64,000 bases of DNA, from positions 44,619,265 through 44,683,264 of the forward strand of contig JASCQW010000072.1 of NCBI GenBank assembly GCA_030264375.1. The letters run 5' to 3'. The position numbers were made by a program. Shown in pieces: positions 62,201-64,000 of this stretch. How positions within the stretch are numbered: the first letter of the stretch is position 1; the number at the start of each line of letters is the position of its first letter. The stretch is from Carcharhinus longimanus (taxonomy: Eukaryota).

Positions 62201-64000
62201 ATTGGAAAAACCCACCTAGTTCTTTAGGGAGGGAGATCTGCTGTCCTTGCCTGTCTGGCCCCACATGAAGTCCAGATCCATTCTAAAATGCCCTTTGAAA
62301 AGGGCAACCCACTCATTTCATAGTCAATTAGGGATGGCCAACAAATATTGGCCTTACCAGTGACACCCACATCCCAGGTATGGATAGAAAAATGGCTTGG
62401 CAAGCCACATTGGAGGGATGGGCAACAAAGGTTGGCCTTGCTTGGCGTTGCTGTGGGATCAATCAACTGTGGCCTAAACCCCTCTATTTTGTTACGCTGG
62501 AGGCTGGCCTGTGAAGTATTCTTTTGCATGATTGATGGGGTTGCGAGCTATTCTCTTGTACGGCATTCTGAATTGTGTGTCTGTTCTGAGGTAATGAGAA
62601 GCTTTAATGTGATGTATGGATTTTCAGGCTTGCAGCAGAGTTTTTCATCCTTTGTCAATGCGGTCCCAATCGGAAGGTGGAAGGAATTCATGCGGCACCT
62701 TCATCTAACAGAAAACCAGATTATGGAGGCTGAACGTAATTATGTGAACGACGTAAAGGAAGGACATTATCAGATGCTTCATACTTGGCTTCAGAAGATG
62801 GGTAACAAAGCCTCGATAAAGGTTCTACTGTGGACCCTACATAAAATGGACCTGGTGACAGCAGCTAATGAAATAAGCCTATCCATACTTAATAGAAACA
62901 AGGAGCACTAAATATCAGGGATTGGAGCGTTGGCACTTTGAAGACAAGCAATGTTGGACGAGGCCTCGAGGAGCCACGACTGACTGGCACCTGGGGAATG
63001 AAAAAATGGACTCTGAGGTCAATCAGCCAAGATCATTGTGAAGCACAGAAACTGCACAATATTCCTGAAACTTAAGTGCCTCTTTCCTCACTGTCTGCAC
63101 TCCCCGATCTTCTGATCAAATTCAATCTTGGAACAGTAATGTACCAGGGAGGAGGAACTAAACTCTCATCAGACAAATAAAATGCTGCTACTGGTTATTC
63201 ACGAGTATTTTAATAAAATTATTTTAGATTGTTCAAAAGAGCAGCATTCTTCTGCATTAGATTCAACATGACTGGATGGAATTCTGATAACAAGGACCTA
63301 CTTCACAAAGGCCTGTTGTTTTGAGCCTGTTTGATGTTTTATTGGAAAGCTCTATCAGAGAGACCTGCTGATGTTGCACGAGAAAGAACACTTAGTTTTG
63401 CAACTGGTGAGACAGAGCTTCATCGTCCGCCTGCCCATCACGAAACTCATTTCGAATTTGTTTCAGCAGGCAGGCATGCCGAGCAGTGTTTCCTTGTTAG
63501 GACCCTGATTTCCGTCAAAGGGTCAGCAGGCAGGAGTGGTGGTCAGGGTCTGTGTACACGATGAAAGACCCATCAGACAGCAAAGACTGGTGGCGTAACA
63601 AACAGTGAGTGGTTTCTCAGTCTCTCAAAGGAGCAACTCAGAGGGGAAGGGGTGATTGAACCAGCCTGAGCTGTTGTACTGGAGGGAAGCTGCAACCTGA
63701 ACGCTGTGTGGAATGGAGAGGGGGTGGAAACACACAGTGAGTGGGGCTCACTCCATGTTGCCAACACTGGTGTACTGACTGAGCGAACATGACACAGCAT
63801 GACCATGTTTTTGGACACCAAATTGGGGGGGAGGGGAAACACAATGTAAAGCAGAGGAGGCAGCTGGGACATGTGGCTTTCTGCAGTATTATATGTGTAG
63901 CAGCTAATATTTCCAACAGTTACACATAGCGTTAGTACTGATGTGACCATGACACTGTTGAACCCCAGTTAACCTGGATTTGTAAACAGCACAACAATTT

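What the first reader, a model, noticed from the sequence alone, without database searches (positions are those of the whole stretch)
62628..63217. Intact death-receptor death-domain exon divergent from FEZF1, with no obvious ectodomain exons
Seen: a spliced, stop-free death-domain exon with acceptor, stop and poly(A) signals, transcribed away from FEZF1. Known: in human the order is AASS-FEZF1-CADPS2, and upstream of FEZF1 on the opposite strand lies the lncRNA FEZF1-AS1, not a TNFRSF gene. Inference: this may be an ancestral or chondrichthyan-specific death receptor lost from mammals, possibly in the position now held by the lncRNA. Since I cannot find convincing cysteine-rich or transmembrane exons in the 32 kb available, it could instead be a cytosolic death-domain-only regulator. 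The missing exons could also hide in N gaps or be too short to recognise by eye.
Basis: partly seen in the sequence, partly recalled or inferred. Interest (0 to 1): 0.78.

Follow-up and report, generated by a model that had tools for sequence, protein, structure and literature searches.

The report
Lone shark death-receptor last exon
This is the intact last exon (the death domain) of an ordinary shark TRAIL-receptor-like death receptor gene, but the rest of that gene is missing from the 64 kb around it, most likely because the draft assembly is unreliable here.

Summary
Window 62628-62911 (+) is a stop-free exon behind an AG acceptor. It encodes a complete death domain (Pfam Death E=1.4e-16; six-helix model, pLDDT 90.7), followed by a stop and two AATAAA signals. 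It is not a new receptor type. The peptide is 75-88% identical to the C-terminus of full-length proteins (TNFR_c6 + Death) annotated as TNFRSF10A/B-like or member 6-like in five sharks. In 3 of 3 full-length relatives tested, the ectodomain matches human DR4/DR5 best among solved structures. A profile of the five relatives and tblastn with 20 relatives find only this exon in all 64 kb, on both strands. The N runs between FEZF1 and the exon total 966 nt, too few to hold about 1,035 coding nt. The exon shows no excess change: its ML terminal branch is 0.051 against 0.062 for Mustelus. The likeliest reading is a conventional receptor gene's last exon, separated from its partners by an assembly fault. 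A real stranded exon is the main rival, and a death-domain-only regulator is a long shot. Interest is low.

The parts
62626..62627 (+). AG of the 3' splice site (ttttcAG|GC). Similarity to relatives ends exactly here.
   Evidence: Sequence read. tblastn alignments with 19 of 20 relatives start at 62624-62630. No similarity to the 45 residues that precede the death domain in 8 relatives, in any of 3 frames (z <= 1.6).
62628..62908 (+). Coding part of the terminal exon (phase 1): a complete six-helix death domain plus a short C-terminal tail ending ...NKEH.
   Evidence: Pfam Death E=1.4e-16. 88% identity to Mustelus asterias TNFRSF10A-like and 75-80% to four other sharks. AlphaFold model pLDDT 90.7 with six helices. 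Best structural match is the TNFR1 death domain, TM 0.81/0.87.
62909..62911 (+). Stop codon TAA, at the same position (after ...KEH) as in all five full-length shark relatives.
62912..63240 (+). Presumed 3' UTR, with AATAAA at 63176-63181 and 63212-63217. The end coordinate is approximate.
   Evidence: Sequence read. No transcript data were available, so the poly(A) site is inferred.
62083..62376 (.). Interspersed repeat copy in the sequence just upstream of the exon, with repeat-like motifs continuing to about 62445. Possible site of a misjoin or rearrangement.
   Evidence: blastn of 61000-64000 against the window: 62083-62279 and 62327-62376 match 8917-9130 and 9176-9225 at 71-80% identity.
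47033..62625 (+). 15.6 kb of N-free sequence upstream of the exon that holds no partner exon.
   Evidence: N map. Profile and tblastn searches. No CpG-island-like 500-nt window in this stretch.
27466..30214 (-). Context: a complete FEZF1 gene with four coding exons (about 30214-29414, 29283-29137, 28228-28082, 27729-27466).
   Evidence: tblastn with the Scyliorhinus torazame FEZF1 protein P0158. C2H2 zinc-finger Pfam hits. Exon 1 search.

Best explanation
The feature is the ordinary last exon of a shark TRAIL-receptor-like (TNFRSF10-like) death-receptor gene. In the full-length protein, a signal peptide and cysteine-rich repeats bind a TNF-family ligand outside the cell. A single transmembrane helix and a linker of about 130 residues follow. 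The C-terminal death domain encoded by this exon clusters after ligand binding and recruits a death-domain adaptor and an initiator caspase. What is shown: the exon's identity, its intact frame, the fold, the family of its relatives, and the absence of every other exon from the window. What is inferred: the signalling role, by homology, and the reason the exon stands alone. I think the likeliest reason is that this draft, gap-ridden assembly does not represent the locus faithfully. A misplaced or chimeric join in the repeat-rich sequence just upstream of the exon would leave the 5' exons elsewhere in the genome, and the gene would be a conventional receptor.
For: Identity. The peptide is 75-88% identical over the whole exon, with the same stop position, to five full-length shark proteins carrying TNFR_c6 + Death. 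It is sister to the Mustelus sequence in an ML tree (support 95/92). The ectodomains of 3 of 3 full-length relatives tested match DR4 first and DR5 among the top three molecules in the PDB. Sharks have a TNFSF10 (TRAIL) ligand gene (PMC7674686, section 10 read in full). No decay. The terminal branch is 0.051 against 0.062 for Mustelus. Polarised substitutions are 3 on the window lineage and 4 on the Mustelus lineage, with 5 ambiguous. Mean identity to four outgroups is 76.9% against 75.3%. The model is a confident six-helix fold. Assembly doubt. The window has 12 N runs of 10-371 nt. In S. torazame an older gene fragment holds 9 residues of the preceding coding segment plus the start of the death domain on a 2,068-bp contig. 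The neighbouring coding sequence is therefore under 1.9 kb away there, and that contig broke on both sides. The full-length genes of Mustelus and Cetorhinus are reported on contigs of only 45,862 and 75,367 bp, which suggests a locus that is hard to assemble. A repeat copy begins about 250 nt upstream of the exon.
Against: Nothing in the window shows a misassembly directly. The exon lies 15.6 kb inside an N-free stretch, so a plain scaffolding error at an N run is not enough unless the last intron exceeds 15.6 kb or the contig itself is chimeric. The repeat copy upstream is only 71-80% identical to its one other copy in the window, which is too diverged to confuse an assembler unless younger copies exist elsewhere. 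The rate test is weak: a 3-fold acceleration gives P=0.07, and if all 5 ambiguous changes are given to the window lineage nothing is rejected. A fairly recent real loss of the 5' exons would look the same. No transcript, read-level or whole-assembly data could be consulted.
Confidence: 0.5

Rival explanations
1. A real stranded exon. A rearrangement or partial duplication placed only the 3' end of the receptor gene upstream of FEZF1. The exon is a fairly young relic with no function of its own.
For: No partner exon lies in 62.6 kb upstream on either strand. That span is more than the whole contig that holds the Mustelus gene, 45,862 bp. In S. torazame the preceding coding segment lies under 1.9 kb from the exon, so the window differs structurally. 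In S. torazame, FEZF1 and the receptor are on sequences of different length, so a position next to FEZF1 is not the usual one. Two window-specific changes fall at columns invariant in the five relatives (N39Y, E73K), and there is a one-residue deletion near the C-terminus.
Against: There is no frameshift or stop in 94 codons. The acceptor, the stop position and the poly(A) signals are all kept. The branch is no longer than that of the Mustelus gene, and Mustelus itself has 3 changes at otherwise invariant columns. A long-stranded neutral copy is therefore unlikely; only a recent event fits.
Confidence: 0.3
2. A death-domain-only protein. The exon is kept under selection and is expressed with a novel 5' exon or from an in-frame ATG just upstream (62528, 62594 or 62612). 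The product is a small cytosolic death domain that modulates death-receptor complexes.
For: The exon is intact and shows no excess change although it lacks receptor exons. The frame stays open for 101 codons upstream of the acceptor, which is true for only 1.5% of codon positions in the window, and it holds three in-frame ATGs.
Against: No shark death-domain-only protein turned up: the near-length search gave 1 hit among 1 candidate, a 67-aa fragment of the receptor gene. The open upstream frame runs through repeat-derived sequence with no similarity to relatives. No CpG-island-like window lies within 47-62.6 kb. There is no transcript evidence. The short death-domain-only entries among distant relatives look like partial or transposon-chimeric gene models; for example, P0018 carries an ALKBH8_N match.
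Confidence: 0.08
3. The whole gene is at this locus, but its 5' exons are unseen. They lie inside N runs whose true size is much larger than written, or further than 62.6 kb upstream, with FEZF1 nested in a giant intron.
For: The N runs are assembly gaps or deliberate masks whose real content I did not and may not look up. Shark introns can be long; this is general knowledge and was not tested here.
Against: As written, the N runs between 30.3 and 62.6 kb total 966 nt, against about 1,035 nt of missing coding sequence in several exons. No partial exon abuts any N run. The relatives' whole genes fit on contigs of 45.9 and 75.4 kb. The preceding coding segment is under 1.9 kb away in S. torazame.
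Confidence: 0.07

Closest known systems
Shark proteins annotated as TNFRSF10A-like / 10B-like / member 6-like (Mustelus asterias, Cetorhinus maximus, Scyliorhinus canicula, S. torazame, Carcharodon carcharias; names as given by NCBI)
   Same: The death domain and C-terminal tail are 75-88% identical, with the same stop after ...KEH. The window exon is sister to the Mustelus sequence in the tree.
   Different: Those proteins are 414-470 aa long, with a signal peptide, TNFR_c6 repeats, a transmembrane segment and a linker. None of that is encoded anywhere in this window.
Human TRAIL receptors DR4/DR5 (TNFRSF10A/B)
   Same: The ectodomains of the Mustelus relative and of two more distant full-length relatives match DR4 best in the PDB, with DR5 among the top three molecules (E 6e-14 to 4e-19). 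As in those receptors, the death domain is C-terminal.
   Different: No DR4/DR5 death-domain structure appeared among the PDB matches, so the death domain itself could not be compared with them. One-to-one orthology was not tested. One shark relative is named member 6-like (Fas-like) by its source.
TNFR1 (TNFRSF1A) death domain
   Same: It is the closest solved death domain by sequence (E=1e-7, including the shared RWKEF motif) and by structure (TM 0.81/0.87, rmsd 1.1 A).
   Different: Identity is only about 32%. The relatives' ectodomains resemble DR4/DR5 more than TNFR1.
Death-domain adaptors (FADD, TRADD) and RIPK1
   Same: They share the six-helix fold (FADD TM 0.80, TRADD 0.77). RIPK1's death domain is a sequence hit at E=8e-7.
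   Different: FADD and TRADD are not among the 21 PDB sequence hits at E <= 1. No adaptor-type second domain was looked for in the window.

Membership tests
Death domain (Pfam PF00531) | Score above the curated Pfam cut-off over nearly the whole profile | tested here: met
   60.8 bits against a cut-off of 22.6, covering profile positions 2-83 of 86.
Death domain (Pfam PF00531) | Six-helix bundle fold | tested here: met
   The model has six helices and pLDDT 90.7. The top Foldseek matches in the PDB are death domains of TNFR1, Fas and FADD, with TM 0.79-0.87.
TNFRSF death receptor, TRAIL-receptor-like | C-terminal death domain homologous to that of full-length receptors | tested here: met
   75-88% identity to five full-length shark receptors, and nested within their clade.
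TNFRSF death receptor, TRAIL-receptor-like | Cysteine-rich TNFR repeats encoded by the same gene | tested here: not met
   Within the window, the profile HMM, tblastn with 20 relatives and a repeat pattern find none on either strand. Exons outside the window could not be searched.
TNFRSF death receptor, TRAIL-receptor-like | Signal peptide and a single transmembrane segment | tested here: not met
   Profile positions 1-347 have no match better than E=3.4 in the window. As above, this says nothing about sequence outside the window.
TNFRSF death receptor, TRAIL-receptor-like | Ectodomain closest to DR4/DR5 rather than to other TNFRSF members | not testable with these tools
   There is no ectodomain here. 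For relatives P0002, P0011 and P0016 the best PDB match is DR4, with DR5 among the top three molecules.
TNFRSF death receptor, TRAIL-receptor-like | Binds a TRAIL-type ligand and recruits an adaptor and caspase | not testable with these tools
   Inferred from homology only. A TNFSF10 gene exists in sharks according to PMC7674686, section 10.
Expressed exon of a spliced gene | Transcripts spliced into 62628 and polyadenylated near 63.2 kb | not testable with these tools
   No transcript data. The only supports are the AG acceptor, the end of homology exactly at that AG, and two AATAAA signals.
Death-domain-only adaptor (FADD/TRADD type) | Death domain closest to adaptor death domains, with an adaptor-type second domain | tested here: not met
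   FADD and TRADD are absent from the 21 PDB sequence hits at E <= 1; receptor death domains lead the list. A second domain in the window was not searched for.

The most novel reading that the evidence does not exclude
The exon is truly stranded beside FEZF1 yet is still kept by selection. It is expressed on its own, from a new 5' exon or an upstream in-frame ATG, as a small cytosolic death domain that damps or redirects TRAIL-receptor-type death signalling. This would be a receptor-derived decoy born by gene truncation.
Probability: 0.08. Interest if true: 0.6.

Novelty: new member of a known kind. Interest (0 to 1): 0.25.

Why it matters
The exon adds one more shark copy of a death-receptor gene family that is already annotated, so by itself it changes little. 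Its practical value is as a warning. The locus is probably mis-assembled or rearranged in this draft, and a gene call here would yield a false death-domain-only protein. If the arrangement is real and the exon is expressed alone, it would be a natural case of a receptor tail turned into a soluble regulator of cell-death signalling. It would also be a lineage-specific change next to a developmental gene, FEZF1.

Tried and rejected
1. Hidden exons. tblastn with 5 relatives and 15 more, plus a profile HMM with all filters off, found only the death-domain exon. One weak extra hit (P0029 against 3178-2885, minus strand, E=9e-4 without composition correction) disappeared with composition-based statistics.

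2. A longer exon. tblastn alignments with P0004 and P0013 drifted upstream of the acceptor. A shuffle test of the 45 residues before the death domain in 8 relatives, against all 3 frames of 62450-62626, gave z <= 1.6, so I rejected this.

The species and names of P0008-P0156 are therefore unknown. I used PDB matches instead. The ESM Atlas gave only 'Death domain-containing protein'.

4. Species or annotation check through FEZF1 exon 1. The best hit was 82% (S. torazame), and no entry was flagged as the window's own. The absence of a gene model for this exon in the protein sets therefore says nothing.

5. Flanking inverted or direct repeats that would mark a mobile-element capture. Nothing convincing turned up in 57-64 kb.

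6. Literature. Five searches listed no paper on a shark TNFRSF10-type receptor or on a receptor gene next to FEZF1 or CADPS2. For these I saw search listings only. For PMC7674686 I read passages and section 10.

7. dN/dS was not possible, because no nucleotide sequences of relatives were available.

The death-domain exon and FEZF1 exon 1 were each searched alone.

Full report
WHAT IS THERE. The plus strand at 62628-62911 is an open frame of 94 codons. It sits behind a canonical acceptor (ttttcAG at 62626-62627, phase 1) and ends in TAA at 62909-62911. AATAAA signals lie at 63176-63181 and 63212-63217. The peptide matches the Pfam Death domain over nearly the whole profile (60.8 bits, E=1.4e-16, cut-off 22.6). 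An AlphaFold2 model built on a 40-sequence alignment has mean pLDDT 90.7 and six helices. Its best matches among solved structures are the death domains of TNFR1 (TM 0.81/0.87), Fas and FADD.

CONTEXT. The window is shark DNA, not human. FEZF1 exon 1 is 82% identical to Scyliorhinus torazame FEZF1 and 81% to Pristiophorus, against 55-60% for tetrapods. FEZF1 is complete in four exons on the minus strand, 27466-30214. The window has 12 N runs of 10-371 nt, and the last 17 kb (47033-64000) has none. I neither filled nor looked up any N run.

WHOSE EXON IT IS. A search for proteins longer than the query returned 5 hits at E <= 0.001 among 22 candidates, and all five are sharks. They are Mustelus asterias (440 aa, 87-88% identical over the exon), Cetorhinus maximus, Scyliorhinus canicula, S. 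torazame and Carcharodon carcharias (75-80%). Their sources name them TNFRSF10A-like, 10B-like or member 6-like, and all carry TNFR_c6 plus Death. All five end ...(K/T)EH, with the stop at the same place as in the window. In a search of 1.84 billion representatives, 182 proteins reached E <= 0.001. Six long proteins from the top nine hits all have TNFR_c6 + Death. The four short ones I scanned (P0018, P0021, P0022, P0033) have Death only and look like partial gene models; one (P0018) carries an ALKBH8_N match that I take for a transposon-derived piece. In an ML tree of 40 death domains the window exon is sister to Mustelus (ultrafast bootstrap 95, SH-aLRT 92). Both sit inside a clade with the two catsharks, the two lamniforms and P0008. 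To name the family without relying on automatic labels, I compared full-length relatives with solved structures. In 3 of 3 tested (P0002, P0011, P0016) the ectodomain matches human DR4 first (E 6e-14 to 4e-19), with DR5 among the top three molecules. The death domain itself is closest to that of TNFR1 (E=1e-7), but no DR4/DR5 death domain appeared among the PDB matches for comparison. Sharks have a TNFSF10 (TRAIL) gene according to PMC7674686 (section 10 read). The exon therefore belongs to a TRAIL-receptor-like death-receptor gene family that is already annotated in sharks and still present in mammals. It is not an unknown or mammal-lost receptor.

THE MISSING EXONS. The relatives have about 345 residues upstream of this exon. 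tblastn with the five sharks (E up to 10, word size 2) found nothing credible elsewhere in the window. A profile HMM of the five, run with all filters off against 3,654 six-frame ORF pieces, matched only this exon (E=1.6e-55, profile positions 348-443); the next best hit was E=3.4. Fifteen further relatives also hit only this exon. One weak extra hit vanished once composition correction was switched on. A cysteine-repeat pattern, recalled from memory, hits 0 times in the window and 2-3 times in each relative. The N runs between FEZF1 and the exon sum to 966 nt, less than the roughly 1,035 nt needed, and no partial exon abuts any N run. Similarity to the relatives ends exactly at the AG acceptor. 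The 45 residues before the death domain in 8 relatives show no similarity to any frame of 62450-62626 (z <= 1.6). This supports a true exon boundary and rules out a longer, decayed exon.

IS THE EXON DECAYING? It shows no sign of it.
- The ML terminal branch is 0.051 for the window and 0.062 for Mustelus.
- Mean identity to the four outgroup sharks is 76.9% for the window and 75.3% for Mustelus.
- Substitutions polarised by outgroups are 3 on the window lineage, 4 on the Mustelus lineage and 5 ambiguous, one of them a one-residue indel.
- Two window changes (N39Y, E73K) fall at columns invariant in the five relatives; Mustelus has three such changes.

The test is weak. A 3-fold acceleration gives P=0.07 and a 5-fold gives P=0.018, and if all ambiguous changes are assigned to the window nothing is rejected. 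An old neutral relic is unlikely, but a recent one is not excluded.

WHY IT STANDS ALONE. Three indirect results bear on this.
- In S. torazame, a 67-aa partial protein on a 2,068-bp contig holds nine residues of the preceding coding segment (MVEEFPDSE) followed by the start of the death domain. The neighbouring coding sequence is therefore under 1.9 kb away there, whereas here it is absent from 62.6 kb.
- The Mustelus and Cetorhinus full-length genes are reported on contigs of only 45,862 and 75,367 bp. The whole gene is thus smaller than the empty span here, and the locus seems hard to place in assemblies.
- In S. torazame, FEZF1 is on a sequence of 147,401,461 bp and the receptor on one of 143,745,025 bp. 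They are apparently not linked. The caveat is that these are the lengths reported for protein clusters and could come from different assembly versions.

Just upstream of the exon lies an interspersed repeat (62083-62376, 71-80% identical to 8917-9225), which is a plausible place for a false join or a real breakpoint.

I rank the explanations as follows:
1. A conventional receptor gene whose last exon is separated from the rest by an assembly fault: 0.5.
2. A real, fairly recent stranded exon from a rearrangement or partial duplication: 0.3.
3. A death-domain-only product: 0.08. The only hints are the intact exon and a 101-codon open frame upstream with three in-frame ATGs, which is true for 1.5% of codon positions in the window.
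4. Exons hidden in under-sized gaps or beyond a giant intron: 0.07.

WHAT STAYED UNCHECKED.
- No vertebrate genome, read or transcript collection was available, so synteny, expression, dN/dS and the sequence beyond 64,000 could not be examined.
- Supplementary files of papers were closed.
- Five literature searches (listings only) showed no paper on a shark TNFRSF10-type receptor or on such a gene beside FEZF1.

VERDICT. The exon is real and intact, from a known and already annotated gene family. Its orphan state is more likely a property of the draft assembly or a local rearrangement than a new kind of gene. Interest is low (0.25), and I rate it a new member of a known kind.

Noticed in passing
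window 27466-30214 (-): A complete four-exon FEZF1 gene. Exon 1 is only 82% identical to the closest protein-cluster representative (S. torazame), while the zinc-finger exons are 93-96% identical.
   Followed up: partly
window 62324-62626 (+): The reading frame of the death-domain exon stays open for 101 codons upstream of the acceptor, through repeat-derived sequence, with in-frame ATGs at 62528, 62594 and 62612. Only 1.5% of codon positions in the window have such a run. There is no similarity to relatives.
   Followed up: yes
window 35501-36000, next to the N run 36227-36436: This is the only CpG-island-like 500-nt window (GC 0.54, CpG o/e 0.70) apart from FEZF1 exon 1. It lies about 5 kb upstream of FEZF1 and could be a promoter or a conserved element. 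It was not examined.
   Followed up: no
window 30690-31060: A simple TG/CA-type repeat (Cys/Val-rich in translation) lies just upstream of FEZF1, beside the N run 30575-30686.
   Followed up: no
window 53202-56100, both strands: A cluster of long ORFs (108-191 aa) with no Pfam match at E <= 0.01, probably a decayed mobile element. GC content is higher than in the surroundings and CpG is depleted.
   Followed up: partly
window 3045-3494 (-): A 150-aa ORF with a Myb/SANT-like DNA-binding domain (PF13873, E=8.7e-5), probably the remnant of a transposon accessory gene.
   Followed up: no
window 58691-58732 and 60645-60686; 62083-62376 and 8917-9225: Copies of interspersed repeats are scattered through the sequence upstream of the exon. 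The 15 kb before the exon is repeat-rich.
   Followed up: partly
relatives P0002 and P0003 (no window coordinates): The full-length receptor genes of Mustelus asterias and Cetorhinus maximus are reported on contigs of only 45,862 and 75,367 bp. The orthologues in the other three sharks are on sequences of 24.9-143.7 Mb. The locus may be hard to place in shark assemblies.
   Followed up: no
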